Made by a program: the position numbers and the translations under genes. Shown piece after piece: positions 304-40,074 of a stretch of 64,000 nucleotides of DNA (positions within the stretch are counted from its first letter, which is position 1; each line of letters begins with the position of its first letter). A model generated the notes under the pieces. The model did not search any database. It saw only the letters and a list, made by a program, of their open reading frames with translations, and had not been told where the DNA came from. The stretch is from Azolla caroliniana (Eukaryota > Plantae > Polypodiophyta): positions 1,178,001-1,242,000 of the forward strand of contig JBHGNT010000022.1 in assembly GCA_043228905.1 (NCBI GenBank), written 5' to 3'.

Positions 304-548
304 ACCCGAATCTAGTGTTATCCGTGGGACGAAAGGCACGAGGGGTGAAAAGAATTTTAAAAGTAAAGTGTGAAAAGGGACAAGTATGAAAAGGAGAAAC
401 AAGTCAAGCACTAGCAGTCGAGGAAGGTAAACCAAAAGACAAGCAACCGTGAAAAAAGGCCGAGAATCAGGAGGAATTAGCTGAAGCGCATAGGCTATAT
501 AAATCATTAAGAAGCGGGAGGCAAGAGAGACAAAAAATATCTCGTTAA

Positions 549-2477
549 TGTCATGGACACACCAACCATGGAGCTATACTTGATGAGGCTAGAAACTCGG
601 GAAGTTGGGGGTGACGAGGTGAGGAACTTAAGAAGCAGGGCCCGACACAAAGAGCATGAAGACAAAGATAAAGATCAAAGAGACAAGATGACGCGAAATT
701 AGAATACTAGATTGATGTGTCAATGATTGGTGTTGAATCCCTTGAACGGGACCAAGGAGGTTACAAGTATTTATATTGTGAGCTGAAGTACATGCATTAG
801 AATATTTTAGAGAATATTTTGGAGAATATTCTAGAACCTTCTAGTTCTCGAATTTTCTTAACACTCCTAGAACTTGAATAGATAATCTACGACGATATAT
901 ATAATATGGCCATGTTTTTGGGTGTGTTGGTTACAACATAACACTTGAGTATAATACAAGAGATCAAGTGTTTGAATCTTGACATAACTGTTGTCATGTT
1001 TGTGACATTACTCTCCCCTTTATGGCCGCCCTTTCGAAAGCGTCATGGTGCAAGGGTGAACTAAAGTACAAAATCAAAGTTGATTGATGATTGAGCAAGT
1101 CCTCACGAGAAATAACAACACGAATGGATGTGAGCGACCATGTGAGGTCCTCATTGGAGATTGGAACATCAATGCTCCCCTTTTCGAAAGAGCGGGAAGT
1201 GGAGCACTGACAGGAGTCAGAAACCATGTGTTGTCCTCATTGGAGACTAGGTGAGCGACCATGTGCGGTCCTCACCAAAGATTGGAACACAAACGGGCAT
1301 GAGTGACCATGTACGGTCCTCACCGGAGATTGGAATCATTGCTCGCTTGCACTCCATTTTCATTTTGGTCCACACTTCGCTCCACTTTCTTGGTGGGGAA
1401 CATGAACGGGAATGAGTGACCATGTGTGGTCCTCACCGGGAACAGAACAACAACGAACGAAGGAGTGCAAGTTAAGCGGTCAACTCAACTTCTTCTATCA
1501 TTAGAGGGTAAATAGTCGAGGTTGACCCAAAACACGGCACAAATGGTAGTGCTAGCGAGAAACCAACACGATCCCCACCAAGAAAGTGAGTGGTTAGGAC
1601 CCCCACTGGAACTAGAAGGTGAGCGATCGAAATCTATCCTCGTTAAAGGAAAGTGGAGTGAAATGTGGACCAAAATTAAAATGGAGTGCAAGCGAGCAAT
1701 GATTCGATCCCCATCAAGAAAGTGAGTGGTTGTAACCCCCACCGAAACTGTGAAGGTGAGCAATCGAAATCAATCCTCGTGAAAATCGTGAAGCAAAGTG
1801 ATACCTATAGATGAGGACAATGACAATGAAGAGGGCGGAACAATGATGATAATCAAAGGCCACACAAAGTAGTGTTGATGAGGATGAAGGTTGGGCGAAG
1901 TAGCGTTTGAGGAAGACAACAAGAGGTGCTGAAAATGATCGTGTCGAAGACAAGGCAACAAAGACGATGATGATGAGAAGCGTCTCTAGAAAGAACGATT
2001 GTGACTATGGTGATGATGGCGTCTCTAAAAGCAAGGACGGTGACAATGGTAACTCTAGAAGCAAGTGTGATGACGAAGATGGGTGATGTTTCCAGTTGGA
2101 AGGGATTCAAGATATCACTTACACACCAACCACGGAGCTATAAGTGACGAGGCTAGAAACTCGGGAAGTTGGGGGAGACGAGGCGAGAAACTTAAGAAGT
2201 TGGGCATGACACAAGAGCATGAAGAAAAAGATAACGAGACAAGAGACAAGATGGCGCAAAATTAGAATACTAGATTGATGTGTCAATGACTGGTGTTGAA
2301 TCCCTTGAAAGGGACCAAGGAGGTTACAAGTATTATATATTGTGAGCTGAAGTACATGCATGCATTAGAATATTCTAGAGAATATTTTGGAGAATATTTT
2401 AGAATCCTCTAGAACTTGCTAAACACTCCTAGAACTTGAATAGATAATCTACGAAGATATATATAACATGACCATGT
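549..2477 (-). mobile_element. Element B: non-autonomous LTR element (TRIM/LARD-like) with LTRs resembling chromoviruses D/G; 3' LTR 549-1007, 5' LTR 2113-~2477 cut by a pogo end
   Basis: 557-915 and 2121-2476 are direct repeats; 3' LTR bounded by TGTCA...TGACA; PPT (AAGGGGAGAG on minus) at 1011-1020; 1.1-kb interior has no gag/pol motifs; TTCTAGAA-rich U3 as in D/G. Confidence 0.7.
1333..1705. repeat. 57-bp inverted repeat (arms 1333-1389 and 1649-1705), next to ~60-bp degenerate direct repeats (1130-1440), inside element B
   Basis: GAATCATTGCTCGCTTGCACTCC...TCCACTTTC matches the reverse complement of GAAAGTGGAG...GCAATGATTC with 3 mismatches. Confidence 0.8.
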
Positions 2478-6467: not shown

Positions 6468-6556
6468 TGTCAGGAATAGTACTAAAGTAGAGAGGGAATT
6501 AGTACTAAAGAAGAGAAGTACTATTAGTACTAAGAGAACGGGACTGCGTAAGATTC

Positions 6557-6596
<40 letters not shown>

Positions 6597-6919
6597 AAGA
6601 GGGAGATAGAGAGGAAGAGAGAGAGAGATGATGATGATAACAGCTAATATATTATGTGAAGGATAAGTACAAAATGGCTAAGAGGCTTAAGACTAGCGTT
6701 GAACCAATTTGGTTCAATATAATGCCTAGTGCCTTCTTTTATACTATTCTCAAGAGTAATCTTGAAGCTTCTAGAATGTTCTAGAGAAATCTAGAATATA
6801 CATTAATTTCCTATAATAAAACTTAAATGACAATAATATCCTATGTATTACAATAGATGGTATAATGGTCAAGAGCTCGACCCATATAACATAAGGTCAT
6901 GGGTTCGAGTCTTGCCATA

Positions 6920-7863
6920 TCATGACACTCTCTCCCCCTTAAGGCGACGAGTGAAACGAGTCGGTGCTGATTGCGGACCGGGTTTGTCCGGATACTTTAG
7001 ATGGAACTCAGCAAGAAGATCCTGAGCATTGGCGACATGCTCGACGGGTTCCCAAGTACGTTCAATCGGACTATAGCCGAGCCAATCAACCAAATAATAA
7101 AGTTTGTTGCGAACAAATTTGGAGTCGAGGATGGTAGCAACTTCATACTCTGGGCCGACGTCTAACTCAAGCGGGGGCGGCGGTGGTGTAACACGATCTA
7201 GAAAAGTGTTTGCTTTATAAGGTTCAAGAAGAGAACTATGGAAGACCGGATGTATCCGAAGATGCGGAGGAAGATCAAGGCGGAACGTGACATCATTAAC
7301 CTTACCGGTAATACGGAAAGGACAGAGTCGGCGATAATCCAACTTGTCGCACGGTCGAGTAGTCTTGATGTGACGAAGTAAAAGCCATACTCGATCTCTG
7401 ATGGCCAAAGAGGAGGGAAGCCGATGACGATCCGCGTAAGTCTTCTATGTTTGTTGAGCATGACGAAGATGAGTAGAGAGATCCATCTGGATCTTGCGTA
7501 GTCTCTCCAAATGATCCCCAACACAAGGATTGGTAGGTAGCTCCAGGGTGTCGATCACCAACTAGCGAGGATGAGAACCGGTATAAGCGTAGAATGGGGA
7601 GACTCGAGTCGAGGAGTGAACAACATTATTATACGCAAACTCCGCAAAGTGGAGAATCTTGTCCCAATCGTCCTGTTGATAACTCAAGAAACACCGGAGA
7701 TATTGCTCCAGCGTTTGGTTTGTTCGTTCCGCCTGCCCATCGGTCTGAGGATGGTAGCCGAAGGAGAGGTTGCAAGAGACCTTGAGCATCTTGAAGAGAT
7801 GCTGCCAAAATTTGGAGACAAATTGCAGTCCTCGGTCACTGATGATACTGTATGGGAGGTCGT
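6920..7863 (-). pseudogene. Element D integrase C-terminus and chromodomain
   Basis: IISDRG, YHPQTDGQAERTNQ, IHPVFHSSLL, EYEVATILDS...YYLVDWLGYSPIERTWEP. Confidence 0.93.
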
Positions 7864-11987: not shown

Positions 11988-12679
11988 TGTCGCGTTGTTA
12001 CGCGCGTGCGTGGAGAAGGGCGGAACCACGGGGGTCTCGGACTAAGGAGAAGGGGAGAAGGAATAGGACTTCGGAATGGAGCTTAGCACAAGAAGAGAAA
12101 GAACGAACAAGAGGAAGATGGAGGCCAAATGCTCAACAAGATATATTAGAACCGAACACCGATTACAAAATGGCGGCCGCGTAGGCCGCACCAAACGGCT
12201 ATGATAAACCCGAAACCCTAATCCGACGAAGAAGAAAAGAAACCCTAACTAAGGAACCCTAAACGAAATGGTATACCTCACTCACACTCCAAAATAAGGC
12301 AACCCCCACAATGGTGCTCTTCCTCTCCCTTTATAGCACAAGGAGGGAAGACCGTTACATAAAAGGGTGCTACAAAATATCCCCTTTCAATCAATGGGGA
12401 TATTTCCCTTGATTTTAGGGGAGGTGGGAAGGATGGGTCTTAACTCCCACCTCTACACGAACTACTATGTACCTATCTCTCTCTCTCACGTGGATGTGCG
12501 CGCAAAAGCACATCACCTCTACACTTTACAAATCCTAAGGTGCATTTCTAGCACCATACTTATCACTATCGATAAATAGAAATACAACATGGTGATGTGC
12601 AACGTTGCACATCGCGGGTTTGCTTGCTTCGCTCGGTTTTCCGCCTATGGACGAAAATCTTCACGACATCCGCCCCCAC

Positions 12680-15600
12680 CTAACCGCACATCCACCGGTA
12701 TGTGCCAAAAGGGGAACAAAACGCGAGATTTTCGGCCAAGGCGGCCAACCGAGCCCTTGACAACCTCGTGGGCTTGCCCGGCTTCGTCTTCCACTTCGAG
12801 CAAGTCCACCCCGTCCACACGAACCACCGTCGCCTTCCGGCCCACCATCTCCGCCGAATGGTCTCGAACCGTCGGCTCCATCCGATCCGCCACATCCACC
12901 GTGTTTCCTCGAACCACCGACTACACTCGGACCGCCATATCCGATGCCCGCGCTTTCCTCTCCGTTCGGTCCTCCCGAACGCCGTTGCCGACCCTTTGTC
13001 CGTCTCGCATATCCTCCGGATCCGCCTTTTTCGTGCCGCGCACCTCGTCGTGCCGACTCTTCTCGCTCCGCGCTTGCCTTCCGTAGGCTTTCCCCGTACG
13101 TCGGTGTCGTCCTCCGAATGCGTGCTCGTGCTTCGGTCCTTTGATGACCCCATCACGCATTTTCCGCCTTCCCCTTGCTTGCCGTGCTCTCTCGCCGTAG
13201 AGCATACCATCGTTCCCGTGCTCGTTGCTTGGCCCTCATGCGGCCGTATTGCACGTTTCGCATTCCGCTCCTCTTCACGTACCCTTTCGGAAAGGTACCC
13301 TTCTTCCCCGACCTCCGTTTCGCTCGAAGGAACACCCTCTTGGCCCTCTTGGCCCGCTCGACCGCACACATCCTTCGTGATGTCGTGTTCGTTCCTTTGG
13401 GCGCATACATCTTCGTTCACCGCGACCTCCCGTATGCCTCTCTCGGTGCCTTCATCCGTTGTGGCCTTCGTCCCCTCGCCGCCACCGTCCGCCACTCTTG
13501 GTCTCACGTCGGCACTCGCGCCGATCGCCGGAGTCTCTATAGCCGGTGTGGAGGATCCCTCTCGGGTCTTATCTTCGTGGCCGCCGGTCTTAGCCTCTCC
13601 GTAGGCCACCTCTTCCCACCAATCTTCCCTAGCATCGTGCCGGGTCTCGTCGTCGCCGCCTTCCTCCTCGTATTCGCCTCTCGAAGGCGTGATCCGACCG
13701 TCATCTTCGGTCGCTCGATGTGGCTCCTTCGTAGGCATGCTTGTGTCTTGGCCCTCCATCGGCCGTATTGCATGCATCTCGTCTCGCTCTTCCGCCGTAG
13801 ACCCGACCTCCGTGTCGGTCCTCTCCTCCTTTGTCGCCGTAGCCCGTTCCGACACGGGCTCGCCGTCTTGGACCCACCCGTCCACCATCTCGTACCGGAT
13901 ATCCGTTCCGGTAACCTCGTACGCTCCGGCCTCCGACTCCTCGCCGCCACCCGCCGTTTCTCCGGTCTTATGTTGATCCGCAACCGCCGTAGTCTCTAGA
14001 GTGGGTATGGAGGGTCTCGTTTGTTTCCGTTTTTCCCCCGAACCATGGTCGTCGTGCCCGGTTAGCCTCCATCTCGCGCTTACCGGCTCCCATCGTAACC
14101 GTAACCGTAACCGTAACCGGCCAATCGGTCTCGCCGGCTTCCTTCGGTTTGGGCCCGGTTCGCCGGCCCTTACTCTCTTCTTCTTTCGTGCCGTACTCCG
14201 GTCGGGTCGGTTCCCGACTCTCTCCTCGTTTCCGCTCCGGTCCTCTCCGTCGGACCCACCGTATACGCCCATTCCGGGCCCCGCATACTCGTCTTCGTAT
14301 GCGCTCTCTCCGGGCCTCACCTCCTCACGGTCACCGCCCATCTCTCCGGTCTCACGTTGGCATTCGAGCACAACCGCCGAAGTCTCCGGCCCCGGTGTCA
14401 AGGGGTCTTGCCTCCGTCCGCTCCAATCTTCCTTCTCGTTTCCGTTGCCCGCCTTGCCGCCGTCACCTCCCGTCGCACTAAGCCTCATGCCGGCACTCGG
14501 GCCGGCCATTGGAGCCTCTAGGGTTGGTGTGGGTAAGGACCCGGCACCGCCGCTTGTTGTCTCCGTAGCCGCTTTCGTTCGGACGTCGTTGTCCGCGGCT
14601 CCCCCATCTCCGATTCCGTAAGCCTCTAGTATGCTTGCCACCACCTCTTCTTCGCCGTTTTCCGCGTCATCTTGTTTGCCCGCCTTGCCGCCGCCACCGT
14701 CCGTCGTTCTAGGTCTCGTGCCGGCACTCGGGCCGACCGCCGAAGCCTCTAAGGCCGGTGTGTGGAAGGTCGCGGCACCACCGCTCGCCTCCTCTCCGCT
14801 CGATGTTTTGGGCCGCCGTGCCCCGAATCTTCCGCCCACTTTCGAAGTGGCGCTCTCCGCTTTGTAGTCACCGGCCTCATCCTTGGCCGTCCATTCGCCG
14901 CAAGACGAGAGGGTTGCTCGCTCCGCACCCTCTCCCATGTCGTCATCGTTTCGGTTGCCCGCCTTGCCGCCGCCACCGTCCGTCACTCTAGGCCTCTCGC
15001 CGGCTCTCGGGCCGGGTGCCGGAGTCTCTAGGACCGGTGTGTGGAAGGTCGCGACACCACCACTCCTCTCGTCCGTAGCCACCTCCATTCGGACATCGTC
15101 GTCCGTGGCTACCCCGTCTTCGGTTTCGCAAGCATCGAGTATGCTTGCCGCCGCCTCTTCTTCGCCGGTCTCGTCCTCATCTCGGTTGTCCGCCTTGCCG
15201 CCGCCACCGTCCGTAGCTCTAGGTCTCGTGCCGGCACTCGGGCCGACCGCCGAAGCCTCTAGGGCCGGTGTGTGGAAGGTCGCGACACCATCGCTCGTTT
15301 CGTCTTCCTCCTCCATTTCGCAAGCCTCGAGTATGCTCACGAAATCCTCGTAGAACGTTTCGGGCAACCGCGTCCCGAAACTTCCGCCCACTCTCGAAGT
15401 GGCGTCCATCGCTCCGTAGATATCGGCCTCGTCCATGGCCGTTCTTTTTCCCCGAGATGAGACGGTCGCTTGCTCCGCACCTTCTCTCGTGTCGACGCCG
15501 TGGTCGCCCGCCTTGCCACAGCCACCGCCTTTCACCATAGGTCTTACGCGGGCACTCGGGCCGGCCGTCGTCATCTCCAGGAATGACGCGTGTAAGGTCG

Positions 15601-16894
15601 CGGGACCGCCGCTCGTCGATGTAATGTCCGCAGCCACCTCCGCTCGGACGTCGTTGTCCGTGGCTACCCCGCCTCCGTATATGCAAGCATCGGTTATGCT
15701 TGCCGCCGCCTCTTCCGCGGTCTCCTTTCCGTTGTCTCGGTTGCCCGCCTTGCCGCCGCCACCGTGCTTTTCCCTCGGTCTCACGCGGGCGCTCGGGCCG
15801 GCCGCCGGGGTCTCTTGAACCGGTGCATGGAAGGTTGCGGTACCGCCGCTTGTCTCCTCCGTACTCGATGATTCGGGCCACCATGTCCCGAATCCGCCAT
15901 GTCCGCTCGAATCGGCGATCGCCGCCTCACCGTCCCCGACCTCGTCCTCGGTCGTTCTTCCCCCCCATGTCGAGAGGGCGGCTCGCTCCGCACCCTCTCC
16001 CGTGGTACCGATGTACCATTCTCTTTCGGCCTCCGCATAGGCCCCGTCCTCCATGTGTGAGGAAGCTCCTTCCTCCGCGTCCTCCGATCCGCTCGGGCCC
16101 GACCCCGCAATAAGCCATTCTTCGGCTTCGATTTTCGCCATTACGAGCCCGCACGCCTCCCGTATTAGCGCTTGTAGGTCGAGCCCCTCCAAACCGGTTT
16201 GCGATGAGCTCTCGTCCGGCGGCATGGCGTAGTCGGTCGTCGCTCTCTCTTCTCCCCCGCTCGCGGGCCGTGTTGTGGCCGACCGCCTCGCCTCATGTTG
16301 CCGACACACCCATTCCACTTCGGGCCACTCCTCGGTGAGACCATGCGCCCCATAATCGTCTTGAAGCTCGAACATGATGTCCATCCTCTCCTCATGATGG
16401 ACCGTCTCCAAAAATAGGAGGACTTTGTCCGCCCCCACCGTTCTTCGTTCCCACTCCGAGAGTTGAGAGAAACGACGCTCGAACTCTCGGAATGCCTCTA
16501 TTGCGCTCCGATGGCGCCTCGCCGACGCCATCCACCGATCGAACTCTCGCCGACCTCTTACCTCCGATTCCGCGCACCCGTATGCCTCCATTAGAGCCCC
16601 TTCAAAGGACTCCCACGATTCGTGAGCTTCTTGGAGCTCCTTGACCTCCTCGTACTTTGATGCGGCCGCCGCTCGACGAAAGAACTCTAGCCTCGTCGCT
16701 TCGTCCACGCCCATCCCCGTCATTTCCGCATCGTAGGCTCTCAAAAATTTTGGGACCTCCTTCCCATCGAACCGGCCGACTAGACGGACCACCCTTTCGA
16801 CCGCTTGTTGAGCCGCCTCTCGCCTCGCCCTCTTCCGTCCGGCGTCCATCAAGATCTTTGTCATCATCTCCTCGAAGTCGAAGCCTTCTTCCAT
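12680..16894 (-). CDS. 1404-aa protein of element E: N-terminal Gag/capsid-like domain plus a long acidic Gly-rich higher-order repeat region; no PR/RT/RH/INT
   Basis: Uninterrupted ORF spanning PBS to PPT; RFDGKEVPKFLRAYD...SWESFEGALMEAYG...FREFERRF resembles Ty3 capsid; repeated ATFHTP..E...GPSAG.RPR.TDGGGGKAG motif. Confidence 0.8.
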   Translation of the reverse strand: MEEGFDFEEMMTKILMDAGRKRARREAAQQAVERVVRLVGRFDGKEVPKFLRAYDAEMTGMGVDEATRLEFFRRAAAASKYEEVKELQEAHESWESFEGALMEAYGCAESEVRGRREFDRWMASARRHRSAIEAFREFERRFSQLSEWERRTVGADKVLLFLETVHHEERMDIMFELQDDYGAHGLTEEWPEVEWVCRQHEARRSATTRPASGGEERATTDYAMPPDESSSQTGLEGLDLQALIREACGLVMAKIEAEEWLIAGSGPSGSEDAEEGASSHMEDGAYAEAEREWYIGTTGEGAERAALSTWGGRTTEDEVGDGEAAIADSSGHGGFGTWWPESSSTEETSGGTATFHAPVQETPAAGPSARVRPREKHGGGGKAGNRDNGKETAEEAAASITDACIYGGGVATDNDVRAEVAADITSTSGGPATLHASFLEMTTAGPSARVRPMVKGGGCGKAGDHGVDTREGAEQATVSSRGKRTAMDEADIYGAMDATSRVGGSFGTRLPETFYEDFVSILEACEMEEEDETSDGVATFHTPALEASAVGPSAGTRPRATDGGGGKADNRDEDETGEEEAAASILDACETEDGVATDDDVRMEVATDERSGGVATFHTPVLETPAPGPRAGERPRVTDGGGGKAGNRNDDDMGEGAERATLSSCGEWTAKDEAGDYKAESATSKVGGRFGARRPKTSSGEEASGGAATFHTPALEASAVGPSAGTRPRTTDGGGGKAGKQDDAENGEEEVVASILEAYGIGDGGAADNDVRTKAATETTSGGAGSLPTPTLEAPMAGPSAGMRLSATGGDGGKAGNGNEKEDWSGRRQDPLTPGPETSAVVLECQRETGEMGGDREEVRPGESAYEDEYAGPGMGVYGGSDGEDRSGNEERVGNRPDRSTARKKKRVRAGEPGPNRRKPARPIGRLRLRLRLRWEPVSARWRLTGHDDHGSGEKRKQTRPSIPTLETTAVADQHKTGETAGGGEESEAGAYEVTGTDIRYEMVDGWVQDGEPVSERATATKEERTDTEVGSTAEERDEMHAIRPMEGQDTSMPTKEPHRATEDDGRITPSRGEYEEEGGDDETRHDAREDWWEEVAYGEAKTGGHEDKTREGSSTPAIETPAIGASADVRPRVADGGGEGTKATTDEGTERGIREVAVNEDVCAQRNEHDITKDVCGRAGQEGQEGVPSSETEVGEEGYLSERVREEERNAKRAIRPHEGQATSTGTMVCSTAREHGKQGEGGKCVMGSSKDRSTSTHSEDDTDVRGKPTEGKRGARRVGTTRCAARKRRIRRICETDKGSATAFGRTERRGKRGHRIWRSECSRWFEETRWMWRIGWSRRFETIRRRWWAGRRRWFVWTGWTCSKWKTKPGKPTRLSRARLAALAENLAFCSPFGTYRWMCG

Positions 16895-16914
16895 CTCTTT
16901 CTCCCTTGCCGCCC

Positions 16915-16932
16915 TTCACGTCGGGTTCACCA
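16915..16932 (-). promoter_or_regulatory. Primer-binding site complementary to the tRNA-Trp 3' end
   Basis: Plus strand TTCACGTCGGGTTCACCA equals the 3' 18 nt of plant cytosolic tRNA-Trp(CCA) as I recall it; 4 nt from the 5' LTR. Confidence 0.85.
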
Positions 16933-17617
16933 AAGATGTCGCGTTGTTACGCGCGTGCGTGGAGAAGGGCGGAACCACGGGGGTCTCGGACTAAGGAGAA
17001 GGGGAGAAGGAATAGGACTTCGGAATGGAGCTTAGCACAAGAAGAGAAAGAACGAACAAGAGGAAGATGGAGGCCAAATGCTCAACAAGATATATTAGAA
17101 CCGAACACCGATTACAAAATGGCGGCCGCGTAGGCCGCACCAAACGGCTATGATAAACCCGAAACCCTAATCCGACGAAGAAGAAAAGAAACCCTAACTA
17201 AGGAACCCTAAACGAAATGGTATACCTCACTCACACTCCAAAATAAGGCAACCCCCACAATGGTGCTCTTCCTCTCCCTTTATAGCACAAGGAGGGAAGA
17301 CCGTTACATAAAAGGGTGCTACAAAATATCCCCTTTCAATCAATGGGGATATTTCCCTTGATTTTAGGGGAGGTGGGAAGGATGGGTCTTAACTCCCACC
17401 TCTACACGAACTACTATGTACCTATCTCTCTCTCTCACGTGGATGTGCGCGCAAAAGCACATCACCTCTACACTTTACAAATCCTAAGGTGCATTTCTAG
17501 CACCATACTTATCACTATCGATAAATAGAAATACAACATGGTGATGTGCAACGTTGCACATCGCGGGTTTGCTTGCTTCGCTCGGTTTTCCGCCTATGGA
17601 CGAAAATCTTCACGACA

Positions 17618-19065
17618 CCGGAAGCAATGGGACGACCATCAATGACTACTACAAATGCGGGGCAAGGAAGTTTTCTTAAGGATATCTGAGAAGCTTGGGC
17701 AAAATTTCGATCCATGAAACAGGAATTGGCTCCGGAATCTAAAAGTGCTAGGAGTTGTACTTGGGGAGTACTTTTAGTACTAACCATGATTTGGGCTAGG
17801 AACACATTGCTAACTTGCTTGGAGGGAATGGAACCACTAATGGGTTGTACAGATCTAGGGCTGTCCAACCAAACGGCTCCTATTTTTGCTAGACTCAATC
17901 GTTTAACTCTTATCTAATTGACTAAGGATTTCAAATTTGTTTGAGATACTTGGGCTATTAGTACTATTAATACTATCAGACACTCCTAAGGGAAAAATTG
18001 GCTCGGGTTTAGTACAGGCTACGATTTGATTTACCTATCTTCTTGGCCTATGGGGACAATTGATTGTGATATGCCCTAGTCCACCGCAATACAGACATAA
18101 TCGATTTGCACGGCGTCGTTGCTTTTCTTCTTCCGATAACGGGCCACGTCGATGCATGGTGTCAATCTCCATCGGTGTCGGAGTATTTTCTTGGGGTACG
18201 TCGCGTGCGAACGCTTTAGCCTCGACTGAGGCGTATGTGGGCTCCGGCCTAGAGCGTGGTATTTGTAATTGACGTTCGGAACGTCGTTCGAAAAGGCGGT
18301 TGTCACATCGGACCGCTCGACTGATTGCCTCCGTAAGAGATTTTGGTTCTTCGGGGAAGGTTAAAAGTAAATCTTTTACATCGTTTCGCAAGCCATAGCG
18401 AAACTGCTCCATTAGTGCCTGATCATCCCAGGGAATATCAGAGGCGAGTAGAAGGAAATCCGCCGCGTAGGCAGAGGCTGGACGATCGCCTTGACGCAAT
18501 CGCCGGATCTTGTTGATCATCATCCTGATGTTGTTGGTGTCTCCAAAGCAAGCTTTAAACTCACTAATAAAATCTTCAAAGTTATTAAGCAAGGGCAATT
18601 GTTTTTCTAGAAGCGGAGCGAACCATGCTAAGGCTGAGCCACTAAGCAACGTGCCTATTAGGCTAACTCGGGATGCATCAGTGGGGTATCGGGAAGGATG
18701 CATTTGGATAACTAATCGTACCTGATTAAGGAATCCCCTGAATTGCGATCGCGTTCCATCAAATTTCACAAGAAGTCCAATCTTCGACTCTTTATGAAAT
18801 CGTTGGGGACTTGATCCTTGTTGTTGCAATGCTGCTTCGAGTTGTTGTACCCGTAACGCTAACTCCTCATGTTGTTGCTACGTTTGTTGTTTTTCTAGAG
18901 CAATTTGTTGCAGATCCCCTATCAACCGTTGGTTTTCTTGTTCCAAGGAAATGAAATTTTCTTTTAGGCACGTTGGTTTTCTTGTTCCAAGGAAACGAAC
19001 TTTTCTTTTAGGCACTGTAGCTCAAAGAAAACGGATTGATATTCTTGGGCGCTAACAGTAGCCAT
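17618..19065 (-). pseudogene. Element D gag (zinc knuckle CLYCGGLGHITINC) and protease N-part (LLDSGA)
   Basis: Homologous to G gag; broken by a 44-bp tandem duplication (~18927-19014) and stops. Confidence 0.93.
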
Positions 19066-19590
19066 AGTATAGGGAAAAGGGTAGGAGGATGAGGGAGAAA
19101 GACAAGTAGGTTGGAGGAAGGCAAATTAGTTCAAACTGTCAGGAATAGTACTAAAGCAGAGAGGGAATTAGTACTAAAGAAGAGAAGTACTATTAGTACT
19201 AAGAGAACGGAACTGCGTAAGATTCCCGAGAGAGAGAGAGAGAGAAGAGAAGAGAGAGATAGCGAGGAAGAGAGAGAGAGAGAGAGAGAGAGATGATGAT
19301 AACAACTTAATATATTATGTGAAGGATAAGTACAAAATGGCTAAGAGACTTAAGACTGGTGTTGAACCAATTTGGTTCAACATAATGCCTAGTGCCTTCT
19401 TTAATAGTGTTCTCAGGAGTAATCCTAAAGCTTCTAGAATGTTCTAGAGAAATCTAGAATATACATTAATTTCCTATAATAAAACTTAAATGAAAATAAT
19501 ATTTTATGTATTACAATAGATGGTATAATGGTCAAGAGCTCAACCCATATAACATAAGGTCATGGGTTTGAGTCTTGCCATATCATGACA

Positions 19591-22524: not shown

Positions 22525-24335
22525 ATGGAAGAATTGTTAGGCGGCATGTTCAAGCTCACCGGCTCCAACTACTCAGTGTGGAAGTCAAAGATGAGGGATA
22601 TGCTGGTGGTTAAAGATCTTTGGTTGCCGGTTCAATGGGCTGATACACCAAGCTACCTTGTTGGAAGTACCTCTCGCGGATGAAACACTCGCATTGCTCC
22701 TGCTTGGTTCCCTCCCAGATAGTTGGGAGACGCTAGTTTTCACATTAGGCAACGCCGGGCCGGAAAAAAAACATTTGTCCCTAGCAAGACTCAAGTCAAG
22801 CTTGCTAGATGAAGAAGCTCGCTGGAAGGACCGAGAGTTCAGAACCGATCCGAAGGCCTTGGTCACGGAAGATGACCACAACCGGGGAAGAGGCCGGTAT
22901 CAGAGTCCCCAAAACCGAGACAAATCGGGGATGAGGTCGAAGTCAAGGGGGAGGCCTACTTGCTTCTACTGTGGGAAGTCGGGGCACTTCCAAAAGAACT
23001 GTCGGCATTTCCGGAAAGAGAAAGAAACCAGCACTACCGATTCGAAGAAGAGTTCGGACTGAAGAGGCCCGGATCGGAAAGGAATGTCGGCAATTGCGAC
23101 AAGTGAAGAAGAACTGATGCTCATTACCGAAGAGAATGAGTTAAACCTTGACTGCGACGAGACAATGTCGGTTGTCGATTCCAGAGCGTCGTTCCACCTG
23201 TCACCGGATCGGAAATGCTTCTCATCCTACATAACCGGTGATAATGGTTGTGTTCGGATGGGGAATGAAGGTACATGTTGAATTGTCAGCATAGGAGATG
23301 TGTTGTTGACGACATCAACCGGATGCAAGTTGTTGTTGAAGGATATCCAACACGTTTTGGAGGTTCGATTGAACCTGATATCAGCCGGTCGGCTAGATGA
23401 TGAAGGCTACACGGGTAGCATCCGGAACTAAGTTATGAAGTTCAGCAAAGGAAGCCTGATTGTGGCTCGAGCCCCGAACACCAACACGCTATATCTGATG
23501 CATGCCCGGATATGCCGGGAAGAAGTGAACGTAGCATCTGACACTGTTGGTGAGTTGTGGCACAAAAGACTGTGTCACATGAGTGAGAAGGGGATGAGAA
23601 GACTTGCCGAAGACAACCTCATTCTGGAGGTGAAAGACGTGCACCGATTGCTTGGCCGGCAAGCAAAACCGAACCTCCTTCCGGTCAAGACCACCGATGA
23701 GACGGAATGCACCACTGGAGCTAGTGCATACCGATGTGTGTCAAGTGGATACGAAGTCACATGCCGGATCGCAGTACTTCGTGACATTCATAGATGACCA
23801 CAATCGGAAGTTGTGGGTCTCACCGTTACCGTTGAAGACGAAGGATCAGGTGCTATCCATCTTCAAGGAACTCCAAGCGGAGTGGAAAGAGAAACCAGTC
23901 GGAAGTTCAAGGCCGTTTGAGCAGACAACGGAGGAGAATACTGGGGGCAATTCGAGGAGTACTGCCGATCAAAGGGAATCCGGCTCAAATTTACCGTGTC
24001 GAAGACGCCGAAACTAAACGGGTTGGCTGAACGGATGAACCGGTCCGTGATGGAGAGATTCCGGAGCATGTTGGCACATGCAAAGTTACCCAAGACGTTT
24101 TGGGTTGAGGCACTGATGACGGCAACCTATGTGATAAACAGATCACCCTCAGCACCCTTGGAAGGAGACTCACCGCAGAAAGTACGGACCGGTAAAGATG
24201 TATCTTACTGGCATCTGAAGGTGTTTGGTTCTCTTGCTTATGTGCATGTTGCAAAGGACAAGAGAGCAAAGTTGGATCCAAAGTCCAGGCCATGCATATT
24301 CCTTGGATACGGCGATGATGAATTTGGTTACCCGG
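22525..24335 (+). pseudogene. Copia F gag, protease and integrase
   Basis: FKLTGSNYSVWKSKM, LLGSLPDSWE, CFYCGKSGHFQKNC, WHKRLCHMSEKG, VHTDVC, NGLAERMNR, CIFLGY. Confidence 0.92.
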
Positions 24336-24630
24336 TGTCATGATATGGCAAGACTCGAACCCATGACCTTAGGTTATATGGGTCGAGCTCTTGACCATTA
24401 GAACATCTATTGTAATACGTAGGATATTATTTTCATTTACATTTTATTATAGGAAATTAGTGTATATTCCAGATTTCTCTGGAACATTCTAGAAGCTTCA
24501 GGATTACTCCTGAAAACACTATAAAAGAGGGCACTAGGCATTATGTTGAACCAAATTGGTTCAACGCCAGTCTTAAGCCTTTTAGCCACCGTTGTATATT
24601 CTCTTCATATAATAAATATCTTTCTTATCA

Positions 24631-24687
<57 letters not shown>

Positions 24688-24793
24688 GTCTCGCTCACTT
24701 CTTCCTTCTCTCGAAGAAGTTCCACACCTCTCATAGTACTAATCCTTCGTTCAATACTAATTCCTTCTCTGTCTCAGTATTGTTCATGACAGT

Positions 24794-24805
24794 TTGAACC
24801 AATTT
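24794..24805 (+). promoter_or_regulatory. Non-tRNA primer-binding site, complementary to LTR 24553-24564 (predicted transcript 5' end)
   Basis: TTGAACCAATTT is the reverse complement of AAATTGGTTCAA, which lies 33 nt after TATAAAAG (24520). Confidence 0.8.
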
Positions 24806-24864
24806 TCCTACCTTCTGTCTCTCTCATTTCCTACTAATCTTTTATTCCTCTTTTCTTTCATCCC

Positions 24865-26016
24865 ATGGCCACTGTTAGCGCTGAAGAATATCACTCTGTT
24901 TTCTCGGAATTCCAATGCTTGAAGGAGAAGTTCCATGCTTTGGAACAAGAAAACCAACGGTTGCTGGGGGATCTTCAGCAAATCTCCTTAGAAAAGCAGC
25001 AAACGCAACAACAACATGGGGAACTTGCGTTACGCGTGCAACAACTCGAAGCCACCATCGTAGCGATGCAACAACATGGGCCCGGAACACAAGGGATTCA
25101 TAAAGAACCTAAGATTGGCCTTCCCACGAAGTTCGATGGAACGCGATCGCAGTTTAGAGGGTTCCTTAACCAGGTACGATTAGTTATTCAAATGCATCCT
25201 TCCCGATATCCCACCGATGCATCACGAGTGGGTTTAGTAGGCACTTTGTTAAGTGGCTCAGCGTTGTCATGGTTCGCTCCACTATTAGAAAAGGAATCTC
25301 CGTTACTCAACAATTTTGAAGAGTTTCTGGGTGAGTTTAAAGCATGTTTCGGAGATACTGACAGCATTAGGACCGCAATCAACAAAATCCGGCGATTACG
25401 CCAAGGTGACCGTCCAGCCTCCGCATACGCTGCAGATTTTCGCCTACTCGCCGCCGATATCCCTTGGGATGATCAAGCGTTGATGGAGCAATTCCGTTAT
25501 GGTTTACGCAACGACGTCAAGGATTTACTCTTGACCTTCCCCGAAGAGCCAAAGTCCTTAACAGAAGCAATCAGTCGCGCGGTGAGATATGACAACCGCC
25601 TCTTTGAGCGACGTTCGGAACGACAGCTACAGATGCCGAGGGCAAGATCAGAGCCCACCTACGCCTCAGTGGTAGCAAGACCTTTTCCGAGGGAGTCATA
25701 TAATGCGTCTCCAGCGAATACTCCGACTCCGATGGAGATTGACACTACACGTCGTCGAGGGCCGTTATCCGAAGAAGAAAAGCAGCGACGCCGTACAAAT
25801 CGACTATGTCTTTACTGCGGTGGACCAGGACATATCGCAATAAATTGCCCCCATAGGCCAAGAAGACAGGTAAACCAAATAGTCGCTAGTTCTAATTGTA
25901 CTAAATCCGAACCTATTTCAGTAGGGATATCTGATAGTCCTAATAGTACTAATATCCCAGATCTAGCAAACAAATTTGATGTCCTTAGTCAGTTAGAAGA
26001 AGAGTTAAACGACTAA
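24865..26016 (+). CDS. gag: Element G Gag, 383 aa (coiled coil, Ty3 capsid, CCHC knuckle)
   Basis: PTKFDGTRSQFRGF, LRQGDRPASAYAADF, PTPMEID, CLYCGGPGHIAINC. Confidence 0.95.
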   Translation: MATVSAEEYHSVFSEFQCLKEKFHALEQENQRLLGDLQQISLEKQQTQQQHGELALRVQQLEATIVAMQQHGPGTQGIHKEPKIGLPTKFDGTRSQFRGFLNQVRLVIQMHPSRYPTDASRVGLVGTLLSGSALSWFAPLLEKESPLLNNFEEFLGEFKACFGDTDSIRTAINKIRRLRQGDRPASAYAADFRLLAADIPWDDQALMEQFRYGLRNDVKDLLLTFPEEPKSLTEAISRAVRYDNRLFERRSERQLQMPRARSEPTYASVVARPFPRESYNASPANTPTPMEIDTTRRRGPLSEEEKQRRRTNRLCLYCGGPGHIAINCPHRPRRQVNQIVASSNCTKSEPISVGISDSPNSTNIPDLANKFDVLSQLEEELND

Positions 26017-26056
26017 GTCCAGCCAAAATAGGAGCCGTTTGGTTGGACAGCCCTAG
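26004..26056 (+). promoter_or_regulatory. Predicted -1 ribosomal frameshift signal between gag and pol
   Basis: G TTA AAC in the gag frame, 6-nt spacer, 11-bp stem (26017-26027 with 26038-26048); conserved in D. Confidence 0.7.
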
Positions 26057-26105
26057 ATCTGTGTAGCCCATTAGTGGTTCCATTCCCTCTAAGCAAGTTA
26101 GTGAT

Positions 26106-29100
26106 GTGTTCGTAGCCCAAGTAATAGTTAGTACTAAAAGTACCCCTCCAGTACATGTCCTAGCACTCCTAGATTCCGGAGCTAACTCTTGCTTTATGGA
26201 TAAGAAATTTGCTCAAGCTCATAAGATATCCCTAAGAAAACTCCAGTGTCCAGCCTCTGTAGTAGTCATTGATGGACGTCCTATTGCTTCCGGAAATATC
26301 CTAGAAGAGTCAGAGCCCATTAATATTGTCCTAGATAACTTAGTATGTGTAGTATCATTTAATATTATTAGTATCCCAGAACATCCTATAGTTTTAGGAC
26401 TACCGTGGTTCGAGTTACATAACCCTGACATAGATTGGAGAACAAGAGAAATCCGGTGTCGAAAAACCCAAGGGTCAACTCAGAAGATGGCAACCATTTC
26501 GCTACGTCAGTTGCGTAAAGAAGGGCACAAGGAGGAAATGTTCCTCTTTGCAATATCAGTAAACCCCTCCAACACCACTAAAGAAGAATCCACCGTTCAA
26601 CTTCCCGAGAAGTATCGCCATTACACCGATGTGTTCGATAAAGTACAAGCCAACACACTTCCTCATCATCGACCGTACGATTGCCCCATCGATTTACAAC
26701 CGGGAAAAGAGCCGCCATGGGGACCGATCTACAATTTGTCACCAACCGAGTTGGAAGTCCTTCGGGCCTATATAGAGGAGAATTTGGAAAATGGTTTCAT
26801 TCGGCATTCGAAATCTCCAGCCGGTGCGCCCATTTTCTTCGTCAAGAAAAAAGATGGATCGCTTCGTCTCGTTGTAGATTACTGTGGCTTGAATAAGGTT
26901 ACAATCAGGAATAGGTATGCTCTTCCCCTTATCTCAAGTCTTTTAGAACGGATCAATGGTGCCAGGTTCTTCACGAAGATCGACTTACGGGGAGCATATA
27001 ACCTCGTACGGATCCGACCAGGAGACGAATGGAAGACCGCGTTTCGCACCAGATATGGGCACTTCGAGTATACTGTCATGCCGTTCGGCCTCACTAATGC
27101 GCCGACAGTCTTCCAGCACATGGCTAATGATATATTCCGAGATCTATTGGATGATTGTTTGATCATCTATTTGGATGATCTACTGGTTTATTCAAAGACC
27201 CAAGAAGAACATGATTCTCATGTACTATTAGTACTAAAACGACTTCGAGAACATGGTCTGTATGCAAAGTTAGAAAAATGTAGTTTCGGGTGCAACCAAG
27301 TGGAATTTCTCGGCTACATCATTTCGTCAGAAGGCATCTCCATGGACCCAGCTAAGGTCAGAACGGTGGTAGAATGGCAGACTCCGCGTTCGGTACGGGA
27401 TGTGCAATGCTTCTTAGGCTTTGCCAATTTTTACCGGAAGTTCATACAGGATTACTCAAAGATCGTTCTACCTCTCACACAACTTACCAGGAAGGGACAA
27501 CCGTTCACCTGGTCTGAAGAAACGGACATGGCTTTCGAGAGTCTTAAAAAAGCATTTACATCGGCTCCAATTCTAGCTCATGTCGATCCGGAGAAACCAT
27601 TCATTATCGAAGCTGACGCATCGGATTTTGCATTGGGGAGCATTCTGTCACAACAGGGGAATGATGAAAAGCTACATCCTGTGGCTTTTCACTCACGCAA
27701 GTTTGATGCCGCCGAAATCAACTACGAAATCCATGATAAGGAGCTATTGGCAATAGTGGATTCTTTTATGCAATGGAGGCATTTTCTGGAGGGATCCTCT
27801 CATCCAGTCACCGTATTTAGTGACCACAAGAATCTTGCCTACTTTCAGGATGCCCGTGTGTTGAATCGACGTCAAGCTCGGTGGGCCCACTTCCTCACGC
27901 GTTTCGACTTCAAAATTACATATCGTCCGGGGAGGCACCAAGGGAAGGCAGATGCATTATCACGGCGTTCGTATCTAGCACCCCGTCCTGGCGAGCCAGC
28001 TTTCGATAACCAAAAACAAGTCATCTTGGGACCGGCACGATTACAAGCAACACAAATCTTTGACATGCCTATGGATTCCCGCGTTATCGATACCATACGT
28101 GAAGACTTGAAGACAGATGCGTTCGCCCAAGCTATACTAGCACAAATTGATCCCTCTCGAGCGTCGTGTTCACAGTCGCAACCACCAGGTACGGACTATC
28201 GGCAATTCAAATACCATGATGGATTACTCTTCTTTAAAGAACTTTTGTATGTTCCTAATGGTTCTTGCCACCTTCGAGTAGTACAAAACTGTCATGACAC
28301 ATATACAGCTGGGCATTTTGGTAGTACTAAAACATTACATTTAGTACAACGATCATTCTGGTGGCCCTGTATGCGACAATTTGTCGAGGATTTTGTTCGG
28401 ACTTGTGATACATGTTGCAGAGCGAAAATGCCAAGGCATCATCCATATGGTTTATTAGAACCATTATCAATTCCAAGCAAGCCGTGGCAATCCATTGCTC
28501 TAGACTTCATCACAGATCTTCCAGTCTCTAAGGGGTTCAATGCGATTCTAACGATGGTCGATCGATATACGAAGATGGCTCATTTCTTGCCATGTACTAA
28601 GGAGATCTCCAGTGAAGACACTGCCGAAATTGTCATGCGTGAAGTATGTCGGCATCATGGACTCCCCGATAGTATCATCAGCGACCGTGGACCCCAGTTC
28701 GTGTCAAAATTCTGGAAGCACCTTTTTAACATGCTCAAGGTCACTTGTAACCTCTCTTCCGGCTACCACCCACAAACTGACGGCCAAGCTGAACGAACAA
28801 ATCAAACGTTGGAGCAGTATCTGCGGTGCTTTCTCAGCTATCATCAGGACGACTGGACAGATATTCTCCACTTCGCCGAATTTGCCTATAACAACTCTAT
28901 CCACGGATCCACTAAAGTTACGCCATTTTATGCTTATACGGGATGTCACCCCCGGTGGAGTGTACTTGAAACCCCAGAGGTGTCCACAAATCCGTGCGCG
29001 GAGGATCGTTTGGAGCGGTTACGCAAGATACAAGCGGATTTATCTACTCATCTCCAGCAAGCTCAACAAACACACAAGGTCTACGCGGATCGTCATCGAC

Positions 29101-29600
29101 TTCCATCTAGTTTTAATATTGGAGATCGGGTGTGGTTGCTACGACGACACATCAAGACTACTCGCCCATGTGAGAAGTTGGATTATCGGCGATTAGGTCC
29201 TTTCCGTATTATTGGAAAGATTAATGATGTTGCTTTTCGTCTCGATCTACCTCCTCAACTTCGGATACATCCGGTGTTTCATAGTTCTCTCCTCGAACCC
29301 TACCACGAGAGCACCATCCCAGAACGTCTTATCCAACCTCCACCCCCGATCGAGCTTGAAGATGGGCCGGAGTACGAGGTTGCCGCCATTCTTGATTCCA
29401 AGATTGTTCGCAACAAGCTCTACTATCTAGTCGATTGGCTAGGCTATAGTCCCAGCGAACGTACTTGGGAACCGATCGAGAATGTAACCAATGCTCGTGC
29501 TCTTCTTGAAGACTTCCATCGTCAATATCCACACAAACCGAGTCCTCAATCCAAGACGACTCGTGACACTCGTCGTTTTAAAGGGGGGATAGTGTCATGA
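26106..29600 (+). CDS. pol: Element G Pol (PR, RT, RNase H, integrase, chromodomain); -1 frame relative to gag, preceded by an in-frame TAG at 26064
   Basis: LLDSGA, YLDD, DASD, HHCC, LDF/SDRG/AER, GPF, EYEVAAILD...TWEP. Confidence 0.95.
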   Translation: MFVAQVIVSTKSTPPVHVLALLDSGANSCFMDKKFAQAHKISLRKLQCPASVVVIDGRPIASGNILEESEPINIVLDNLVCVVSFNIISIPEHPIVLGLPWFELHNPDIDWRTREIRCRKTQGSTQKMATISLRQLRKEGHKEEMFLFAISVNPSNTTKEESTVQLPEKYRHYTDVFDKVQANTLPHHRPYDCPIDLQPGKEPPWGPIYNLSPTELEVLRAYIEENLENGFIRHSKSPAGAPIFFVKKKDGSLRLVVDYCGLNKVTIRNRYALPLISSLLERINGARFFTKIDLRGAYNLVRIRPGDEWKTAFRTRYGHFEYTVMPFGLTNAPTVFQHMANDIFRDLLDDCLIIYLDDLLVYSKTQEEHDSHVLLVLKRLREHGLYAKLEKCSFGCNQVEFLGYIISSEGISMDPAKVRTVVEWQTPRSVRDVQCFLGFANFYRKFIQDYSKIVLPLTQLTRKGQPFTWSEETDMAFESLKKAFTSAPILAHVDPEKPFIIEADASDFALGSILSQQGNDEKLHPVAFHSRKFDAAEINYEIHDKELLAIVDSFMQWRHFLEGSSHPVTVFSDHKNLAYFQDARVLNRRQARWAHFLTRFDFKITYRPGRHQGKADALSRRSYLAPRPGEPAFDNQKQVILGPARLQATQIFDMPMDSRVIDTIREDLKTDAFAQAILAQIDPSRASCSQSQPPGTDYRQFKYHDGLLFFKELLYVPNGSCHLRVVQNCHDTYTAGHFGSTKTLHLVQRSFWWPCMRQFVEDFVRTCDTCCRAKMPRHHPYGLLEPLSIPSKPWQSIALDFITDLPVSKGFNAILTMVDRYTKMAHFLPCTKEISSEDTAEIVMREVCRHHGLPDSIISDRGPQFVSKFWKHLFNMLKVTCNLSSGYHPQTDGQAERTNQTLEQYLRCFLSYHQDDWTDILHFAEFAYNNSIHGSTKVTPFYAYTGCHPRWSVLETPEVSTNPCAEDRLERLRKIQADLSTHLQQAQQTHKVYADRHRLPSSFNIGDRVWLLRRHIKTTRPCEKLDYRRLGPFRIIGKINDVAFRLDLPPQLRIHPVFHSSLLEPYHESTIPERLIQPPPPIELEDGPEYEVAAILDSKIVRNKLYYLVDWLGYSPSERTWEPIENVTNARALLEDFHRQYPHKPSPQSKTTRDTRRFKGGIVS

Positions 29601-29887
29601 TATGGCAAGACTCGAACCCATGACCTTAGGTTATATGGGTCGAGCTCTTGACCATTAGAACATCTATTGTAATACGTAGGATATTATTTTCATTTACATT
29701 TTATTATAGGAAATTAGTGTATATTCCAGATTTCTCTGGAACATTCTAGAAGCTTCAGGATTACTCCTGAAAACACTATAAAAGAGGGCACTAGGCATTA
29801 TGTTGAACCAAATTGGTTCAACGCCAGTCTTAAGCCTTTTAGCCACCGTTGTATATTCTCTTCATATAATAAATATCTTTCTTATCA

Positions 29888-29932
<45 letters not shown>

Positions 29933-30041
29933 GTCTCGCTCACTTCTTCCTTCTCTCGAAGAAGTTCCACACCTCTCATAGTACTAATCCTTCGTTCAGT
30001 ACTAATTCCTTCTCTGTCTCAGTACTGTTCATGACACCCGG

Positions 30042-40025: not shown

Positions 40026-40074
40026 CTCTGTAATAAGGCTAATGAGCTAATTTCACATTGACTTATATCTATTA

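What the first reader, a model, noticed from the sequence alone, without database searches (positions are those of the whole stretch)
24520..24805. tRNA-independent self-priming, supported by covariation across three elements
Seen: no TGG-type tRNA PBS follows the 5' LTR of G, D or B. Instead, 2 nt past the LTR lies a sequence complementary to an LTR segment ~30 nt downstream of the TATA box. In G, TTGAACCAATTT (24794-24805) pairs with AAATTGGTTCAA (24553-24564). In D (minus), TTGAACTAATTT (19123-19134) pairs with 19362-19373 via one G-U. In B (minus), TTGAATCCCTT (2100-2110) pairs with AAGGGATTCAA (2296-2306). B changes both partners compensatorily. Known: S. pombe Tf1 primes with the first 11 nt of its own RNA after RNase H cleavage. 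Inference: these plant Tcn1-like chromoviruses use the same mechanism.
Basis: partly seen in the sequence, partly recalled or inferred. Interest (0 to 1): 0.75.

Follow-up and report, generated by a model that had tools for sequence, protein, structure and literature searches.

The report
Self-priming Tcn1-type plant retrotransposons
These plant jumping genes carry a primer site that pairs with a piece of their own terminal repeat rather than with the end of a tRNA, so they likely start copying themselves with the front of their own RNA, as already predicted for this group; dozens of rearranged copies elsewhere in the genome are joined exactly at that pairing.

Summary
G and D are Ty3/gypsy chromoviruses of the Tf1/sushi-Tcn1 type; B is a non-coding relative. 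Self-priming is already predicted for this clade (83% of 1500 Tcn1 elements, PMC6317226), so the main claim is not new. The window gives only one real comparison: D shares G's LTR segment, and its G-U pair is a private change. Genome-wide support is stronger. Six primer/PBS sequence types are each fully paired, start 2 nt after the LTR, and lie 32-33 nt behind a TATA box; tRNA-type controls show nothing. New here: 40 of 1055 exact PBS junctions run from U5-PBS straight into inverted U3, often inside one target-site duplication. The inverted U5 pieces mostly stop just 3' of the primer (9 of 14 that get there end at R12-R19). This is likely a fossil of the cut that frees the primer, but host repair of a DNA stem-loop could give the same picture, and family B did not reproduce the sharp peak. 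The transcription start was not measured. Tf1's side helices are not conserved in G or D. The scan noted similar self-pairing sites in other genomes (Copia, BEL).

The parts
24336..24791 (+). G 5' LTR (456 bp, TG...CA); target-site duplication CCCGG at 24331-24335 and 30037-30041
24520..24526 (+). G TATA box, 33 nt before the predicted self-primer; 32-33 nt in all 22 fully paired genome elements
24545..24565 (+). Perfect 10-bp palindrome across the predicted U3/R border; its left arm is predicted to block primer:PBS pairing in RNAs that start upstream; G-like families only
24553..24564 (+). G predicted self-primer (R1-R12); predicted transcription start at 24553 (C then A)
   Evidence: start inferred, not measured
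24794..24805 (+). G primer-binding site, 2 nt after the LTR, exact complement of 24553-24564
24838..26016 (+). G gag frame (Retrotrans_gag, Ty3_capsid, zinc knuckle)
26067..29600 (+). G pol frame (protease, RT, RNase H, integrase, SH3, chromodomain), -1 to gag; a stop just upstream separates it from gag, whereas the two frames overlap in 7 of 7 relatives checked
29580..29592 (+). G polypurine tract
29593..30036 (+). G 3' LTR, 96.9% identical to the 5' LTR
19137..19590 (-). D 5' LTR; target-site duplication AGAAG; element interrupted by element C
19362..19373 (-). D predicted self-primer, same sequence as in G
19123..19134 (-). D primer-binding site with one G-U pair (private change)
6468..6927 (-). 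D 3' LTR
2113..2476 (-). B 5' LTR, outer ~90 bases missing, decayed end (TGATA)
2296..2306 (-). B predicted self-primer (11 nt), followed by a segment that pairs with the U5 end in the family
2100..2110 (-). B primer-binding site, 11 of 11 complementary
548..1007 (-). B 3' LTR, preceded by a purine tract; no gag or pol similarity between the LTRs

Best explanation
G, D and their non-coding relative B carry a primer-binding site that is complementary to their own LTR, and they likely prime minus-strand DNA synthesis with the first 11-12 bases of their own RNA, as Tf1 does. Shown: the pairing, its fixed geometry (2 nt after the LTR; 32-33 nt behind TATA), its covariation over six sequence types, and genomic junctions made through this duplex. 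Inferred: transcription starts at the first A of the paired segment; that segment anneals to the PBS; the element's RNase H cuts after base 11 or 12; RT extends the freed primer across U5 to R13. Inferred from Tf1: the primer stays on the minus strand and is copied into the PBS, so part of the covariation may be templated rather than selected.
For: Of 60 loci chosen from gag and SH3 family hits, 32 gave a TSD-bounded element. 27 lack TGG: 22 have a perfect 11-13 nt complement at offset 2 (0-1 of 300 shuffles), 3 have one change, 1 has lost the PBS, 1 had its LTR end miscalled. The 5 tRNA-Met-type elements and element C reach only 4-6 nt. Six types differ from G at 1, 2, 3, 4 or 5 pairs, always on both sides; positions 3-9 vary; one B copy (L039) has a further private double change. 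The duplex is predicted at P 0.91-0.95 in 8 of 10 RNAs started at the primer. The RT tree puts these elements with frog and fish elements (92/90), apart from the tRNA-Met plant chromoviruses (100/99). 40 of 1055 exact junctions join U5-GT-PBS to inverted U3 against 1 fold-back at the U3/R palindrome. Inverted pieces end at R12-R19 in 9 of 14 at risk, 0.6 expected. Clade prediction: PMC6317226.
Against: No transcription start or primer was observed; RNA-seq gave no pile-up of ends. The side helices of Tf1's three-duplex structure are not found above chance in G or D. The duplex is not predicted in L069 (P 0.00) and only partly in L082 (0.56), although the folding cannot show pseudoknots. 8 of 16 old B-family copies have unpaired changes. 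G-type and L082-type PBS regions also match 11 nt of a tRNA-Thr T-arm. The tRNA set tested was small and lacked the positive control. In family B only 1 of 3 pieces at risk ended in R12-R19.
Confidence: 0.9

Rival explanations
1. A tRNA fragment ending in the T-loop primes these elements, because TTGAACC is the complement of the T-arm sequence GGTTCAA.
For: G- and L069-type sites match 11 nt (offset 1) of a tRNA-Thr(GGT) copy; L082- and L093-type sites match 10-11 nt of a tRNA-Gln-like gene, and tRNA-Thr copies with the matching T-arm exist.
Against: B, L081 and L113 types match at most 6-8 nt internally, and no family matches a tRNA 3' end beyond 3 nt among 41 distinct genes. Each LTR carries its own exact complement, longer than or equal to the tRNA match, and covarying. 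The matching tRNA-Thr looks organelle-type (recalled). Limit: 41 genes of 12 anticodon types only.
Confidence: 0.04
2. The R/PBS pairing is a structural element (packaging, translation or dimerisation) and priming uses something else.
For: Transcription start and cleavage are unmeasured; Tf1's side helices are missing in G and D.
Against: The complement sits exactly where a PBS sits, no tRNA site is there, its length (11-12) and TATA spacing match a 5'-terminal primer, and the related Tf1 uses this mechanism (PMC7175516 passages).
Confidence: 0.05
3. Rival for the fold-back copies only: they arose in DNA, not from the RNA cut. A single-stranded LTR or cDNA end forms the same 12-bp stem, a host structure-specific nuclease cuts near the stem's edge, and microhomology repair finishes the job. 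The loop boundary alone would then explain the pile-up at R13.
For: End points are ragged (R12 to R44), not sharp; 5 of 38 pieces run past R12, one as a near-clean inversion; 6 of 18 TSDs are imperfect; Tf1 cDNA with a single-stranded PBS end enters the genome by host annealing (PMC11042837 passages).
Against: Clean inversions, the expected product of simple template switching between inverted repeats, are rare (1 of 38 in G- and L069-type, 1 of 11 in B). Inverted pieces are as close to the element's own 3' LTR (28 differences in 2260) as the U3 arms are (75 in 4796), so they are about as old as the insertions. The fold-back at the palindrome occurs once.
Confidence: 0.45

Closest known systems
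Tcn1 clade of plant chromoviruses (REXdb; Neumann et al. 2019, PMC6317226; Novikova et al. 2010, PMC2864245)
   Same: Chromodomain, gag/pol in overlapping -1 frames in relatives, 5-bp TSD, 5.3-5.9 kb, LTR-complementary site 0-5 nt after the LTR; self-priming predicted for 83% of 1500 elements.
   Different: Nothing in kind. The passages read give no covariation table, no TATA spacing and no rearranged copies; their per-element table (supplementary file 1) was too large to read and may hold these very sites. Novikova 2010 saw no self-priming signal in SM-Tcn1.
Tf1/Tf2 of Schizosaccharomyces pombe (Tf1/sushi group)
   Same: 11-12 nt of R complementary to the PBS; no tRNA site; chromovirus; RT closer to fungal and vertebrate elements than to seed-plant ones.
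   Different: Tf1's start site and RNase H cut are proven, these are not. Tf1 needs two further helices; G and D show none above chance, B shows one. G-like families add a U3/R palindrome. Tf1 has a single ORF (recalled; implied by a reference title).
Integrase-independent Tf1 insertion through the single-stranded PBS end (Li et al. 2022, PMC11042837)
   Same: The copied primer at a cDNA end anneals to homologous sequence; tandem elements sharing one LTR, also seen here (L159, L169, L199).
   Different: That paper's passages describe direct tandem products and contain the word 'inverted' 0 times; here the PBS is joined to the antisense of R, giving inverted U5 pieces.

Membership tests
Tcn1 clade chromovirus (G, D) | Ty3/gypsy domain order with C-terminal chromodomain | tested here: met
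   (G); D shares RT, RNase H and gag domains
Tcn1 clade chromovirus (G, D) | Chromodomain with aromatic cage | tested here: met
   Y, W and Y at the cage positions in G; positions assigned from recalled chromodomain consensus
Tcn1 clade chromovirus (G, D) | 5-bp TSD and size 5.5-9.4 kb | tested here: met
   G 5701 bp, CCCGG; D AGAAG; range
Tcn1 clade chromovirus (G, D) | gag and pol in separate or overlapping frames | tested here: met
   overlap in 7 of 7 relatives; separate in G
Tcn1 clade chromovirus (G, D) | RT groups with Tf1/sushi elements, not with other plant chromoviruses | tested here: met
   with frog and fish rows 92/90 (not starred); tRNA-Met plant group apart at 100/99
Tcn1 clade chromovirus (G, D) | RT groups with named Tcn1 references (Tcn1, PpatensLTR2, SM-Tcn1) | not testable with these tools
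   no named reference sequence was returned
Tcn1 clade chromovirus (G, D) | Host is a moss or club-moss | not tested
   host unnamed; non-seed plant inferred from the element set only
Tcn1 clade chromovirus (B) | Coding domains that place it in the clade | tested here: inconclusive
   no gag or pol hit in B; first 60 LTR bases of two relatives are 75-77% alike to Tcn1-type L113 (E 2e-6); shared GTTTG and CACCAGT motifs
Tf1-type self-priming | 11-12 nt R segment complementary to a site just after the 5' LTR, no tRNA 3'-end match | tested here: met
   (tRNA set incomplete)
Tf1-type self-priming | RNA starts at the first base of the primer | tested here: inconclusive
   RNA-seq too thin, no 5'-end pile-up; TATA spacing and C-A start fit
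Tf1-type self-priming | RNase H cut after the duplex | not testable with these tools
   indirect only: end points of inverted pieces
Tf1-type self-priming | Two side helices (three-duplex 'pretzel') | tested here: not met
   G and D: 143-234 of 300 shuffles as good. B: one helix, 0 of 300. L069: a 15-bp helix that its sisters L075 and L097 lack. Definition from bioRxiv 2022.12.06.519325 passage
Tf1-type self-priming | Primer kept on the minus strand and copied to the cDNA end | not testable with these tools
   compatible: L170 has 3' internal end + LTR + PBS, but tandem arrays give the same template

The most novel reading that the evidence does not exclude
The genome holds a fossil map of self-priming: about 4% of these elements were inserted as reverse-transcription accidents in which U3 and the primer are fused to the minus-strand strong-stop product, and the end points mark the RNase H cut at R12/R13. 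Such junctions would be a general sequence-only test for self-priming in any LTR lineage. In G-like families a U3 palindrome arm would also mask the 3' copy of the primer and disarm read-through RNAs.
Probability: 0.45. Interest if true: 0.6.

Novelty: new member of a known kind. Interest (0 to 1): 0.36.

Why it matters
Self-priming has been shown by experiment only in fission yeast elements (per the passages read); for plants it is a prediction from complementarity. The covariation table and fixed TATA spacing give exact start and cut sites to test in a plant. If the fold-back copies are reverse-transcription products, they are in vivo evidence for the duplex and the cut, readable from a genome assembly alone, and a recurring cost of self-priming (about 1 in 25 junctions).

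Tried and rejected
RNA evidence: no RNA holder was listed; three poly(A) runs laid on G (83-133 reads each, none 99% alike) and on L069 gave no 5'-end pile-up: no evidence either way. Conserved side helices: not found. The U3/R palindrome as a requirement: rejected, since it is weak or absent in L069, L081, L082, L093 and L114 (47-121 of 300 shuffles as good) and fold-back junctions also occur without it (17). A T-arm-like hairpin in G's R segment: its 3' side does not covary in other families (inspection). D as independent covariation: rejected. 28 of 60 fetched loci gave no TSD-bounded pair and were dropped. Of 19 hits to the B-type junction pattern, 11 were true junctions and 8 were LTR variants or other structures. 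One of 24 G-type hits (L129) is not a full fold-back; two duplicates (L173, L212) were removed before the hazard test and L152's end point was taken. Seven L082-type junctions were counted but not inspected. Lin and Levin 1998, Esnault and Levin 2015 and Atwood-Moore 2006 were not held; I saw only their titles and second-hand statements.

Full report
Observation. G spans 24336-30036 with 456/444-bp LTRs, TSD CCCGG and a purine tract; D spans 6468-19590 on the minus strand with TSD AGAAG and is interrupted by element C; B spans 548-2476 on the minus strand, is old (LTRs 88% alike) and has no coding similarity. The G and B matches beat 300 of 300 shuffles; D needs its G-U pair. D's LTR segment is identical to G's, so the window holds one informative contrast, G/D against B, with three pairs changed on both sides.

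What the elements are. G encodes gag and a pol frame with protease, RT, RNase H, integrase and a chromodomain. Named relatives over RT-RNase H are frog, fish and basidiomycete elements at about 50-63% identity, seed-plant ones at 44-51%. In an RT tree of 47 rows the non-tRNA elements of this genome group with frog and fish rows (92/90), apart from the tRNA-Met chromoviruses of the same genome, Closterium and Tanacetum (100/99). No named Tcn1 reference was in the tree, so the Tcn1 label rests on this placement plus the features listed for the clade.

What is known. Neumann et al. 2019 (PMC6317226; passages and supplementary file 5) state that most Tcn1 elements lack a tRNA site and are predicted to self-prime, 83% of 1500, detected as LTR complements of at least 10 bp starting 0-5 bp after the LTR. 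Their per-element table could not be read and may list these sites. Novikova et al. 2010 (passages) found no such signal in SM-Tcn1. For Tf1 the first 11 bases pair with the PBS and RNase H cuts between bases 11 and 12 (PMC7175516 passage); three helices are needed (bioRxiv 2022.12.06.519325 passage); about half of Tf1 cDNA keeps a single-stranded PBS copy at its 3' end (PMC11042837 passage); Tf2 RNAs that start downstream cannot prime (PMC5341516 passages). The central claim is therefore already in print as a prediction.

Covariation in the genome. I fetched 60 loci picked for variety from 300 gag and SH3 hits; 32 gave TSD-bounded elements. Of 27 without TGG, 22 have a perfect 11-13 nt complement that starts 2 nt after the LTR and lies 32-33 nt behind a TATA box, opening with a pyrimidine then A; three have one change, one has lost the site, one was miscalled. 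Five tRNA-Met-type elements and element C reach 4-6 nt. There are six sequence types; relative to G they differ at 1 (L082), 2 (L093), 3 (B), 4 (L081) and 5 (L113) pairs, each on both sides, and only the last three bases and the opening A are fixed. Old B copies carry one-sided changes in 8 of 16 cases, as expected after insertion; one (L039) has a private double change. Types are related, so these are not independent trials, and copying of a retained primer into the PBS would produce covariation without selection. Either route implies that the segment acts as primer.

tRNA rival. Among 41 distinct tRNA genes (12 anticodon types, from 62 Rfam hits of which 20 regions were fetched, plus 6 pattern hits) no 3' end matches beyond 3 nt. 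G- and L082-type sites match 11 nt of a T-arm; B, L081 and L113 do not. The set lacked initiator tRNA-Met, so the positive control failed and the test is partial.

RNA structure. Started at the primer, the duplex is predicted at P 0.91-0.95 in 8 of 10 RNAs, 0.56 in L082 and 0.00 in L069. In G, D, L065 and L082, starting 15 nt upstream drops it to 0.03-0.13, because the primer is the right arm of a palindrome (24545-24565 in G). This would hide the 3' copy of the primer and disarm read-through RNAs, but B, L081, L093 and L113 keep the duplex, so it is not general. Tf1-like side helices are not above chance in G or D; B has one.

Fold-back copies. One B relative (L060) ran from U5-GT-PBS directly into the reverse complement of U3. 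Exact-pattern searches found 24 such sites with G-type U3 (23 full), 17 with L069-type U3, which has no palindrome, 11 true of 19 in family B and 7 uninspected with L082-type. The first two sets share a PBS that has 1055 exact junctions, giving 40 of 1055. A fold-back at the U3/R palindrome occurs once. The usual layout is TSD, U3 from base 1, R1-R12, inverted GT and U5, a switch with 0-8 nt overlap into the internal region, 3' LTR, TSD. Of 18 with an own 3' LTR, 12 have a perfect 5-bp TSD, 4 one mismatch, 2 two; inverted pieces differ from the own 3' LTR at 1.2%, U3 arms at 1.6%. Among 38 independent events, 24 end before R20, 9 end at R12-R19 and 5 pass; 0.6 were expected in that window from the earlier rate (binomial P about 1e-9; 8e-7 for R13-R20; window chosen after seeing the data, and the rate is already raised from about R33). 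In family B, 6 of 11 ends fall at R16-R54 but only 1 of 3 at risk ends in R12-R19.

Reading of the fold-backs. They show that the R segment and the PBS sequence paired in vivo around the time of insertion. The stop just 3' of the primer fits a template that begins at R13, that is the RNA after the cut or its strong-stop copy; a tRNA-primed RNA starting at R1 would put the stop at R1. A DNA stem-loop opened by host repair has the same boundary, so this is not proof. Literature searches (listings only) showed no description of such copies; most subscription papers are not searched.

Verdict. Real, best explained by Tf1-like self-priming (0.9), and already predicted for the clade. New families of a known kind, with better evidence than a single complement, and one unreported by-product that may map the cut site (0.45). 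Interest 0.36.

Noticed in passing
window 11988-17617 (element C, minus strand): LTR element nested in D with identical 681-bp LTRs, 4-bp TSD CCGG (the NCGN form listed for Phygy), a TGG-type PBS that looks like tRNA-Trp (recalled, not tested), a GC-rich interior and a 1411-codon open frame at 12680-16915 without Pfam hit; weak gag lead from the Atlas (score 0.88). Probably a young gag-only element.
   Followed up: partly
window ~26004-26010; L069, L074, L082, L093, L119: GTTAAAC at the end of gag in G and 5 of 7 relatives, where gag and pol overlap in the -1 frame: candidate frameshift site.
   Followed up: partly
L159, L160, L164, L169, L199; B family L038, L045, L050: Tandem arrays sharing one LTR (internal-LTR-internal), as described for integrase-independent Tf1 insertion.
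   Followed up: no
L156 (G000:C4:19601200-19611160): 656-bp mini element made only of U3-R12 plus an inverted whole LTR, with a perfect TSD GTAGA.
   Followed up: partly
L129 (G000:C9:8705109-8708133): Normal LTR and leader, but the PBS is followed by 7 bases of inverted U3: a very short templated insertion.
   Followed up: no
L066 (G000:C6:4451373-4460873): Element with 99.6% identical LTRs and intact TSD whose PBS is mostly deleted.
   Followed up: no
L069 leader: 15-bp exact complement of the U5 end 20 nt past the PBS, absent from sisters L075 and L097: likely a small private inversion.
   Followed up: partly
L235, L237 (G000 C2 and C14): tRNA-like T-arm motifs in chromosomal contigs; L235 is a tRNA-Thr(GGT) copy that differs from the copies on C73 and C1503, probably an organelle insertion.
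   Followed up: no
window 3558-4646, 38643-40046, 41517-42869: Copia-type fragment (RVT_2), a Tc5/DDE_1 transposase frame and a further RT frame.
   Followed up: no
window 8120-8771 and 40042-41246: Tandem arrays of 105 bp (inside D) and 113 bp.
   Followed up: no
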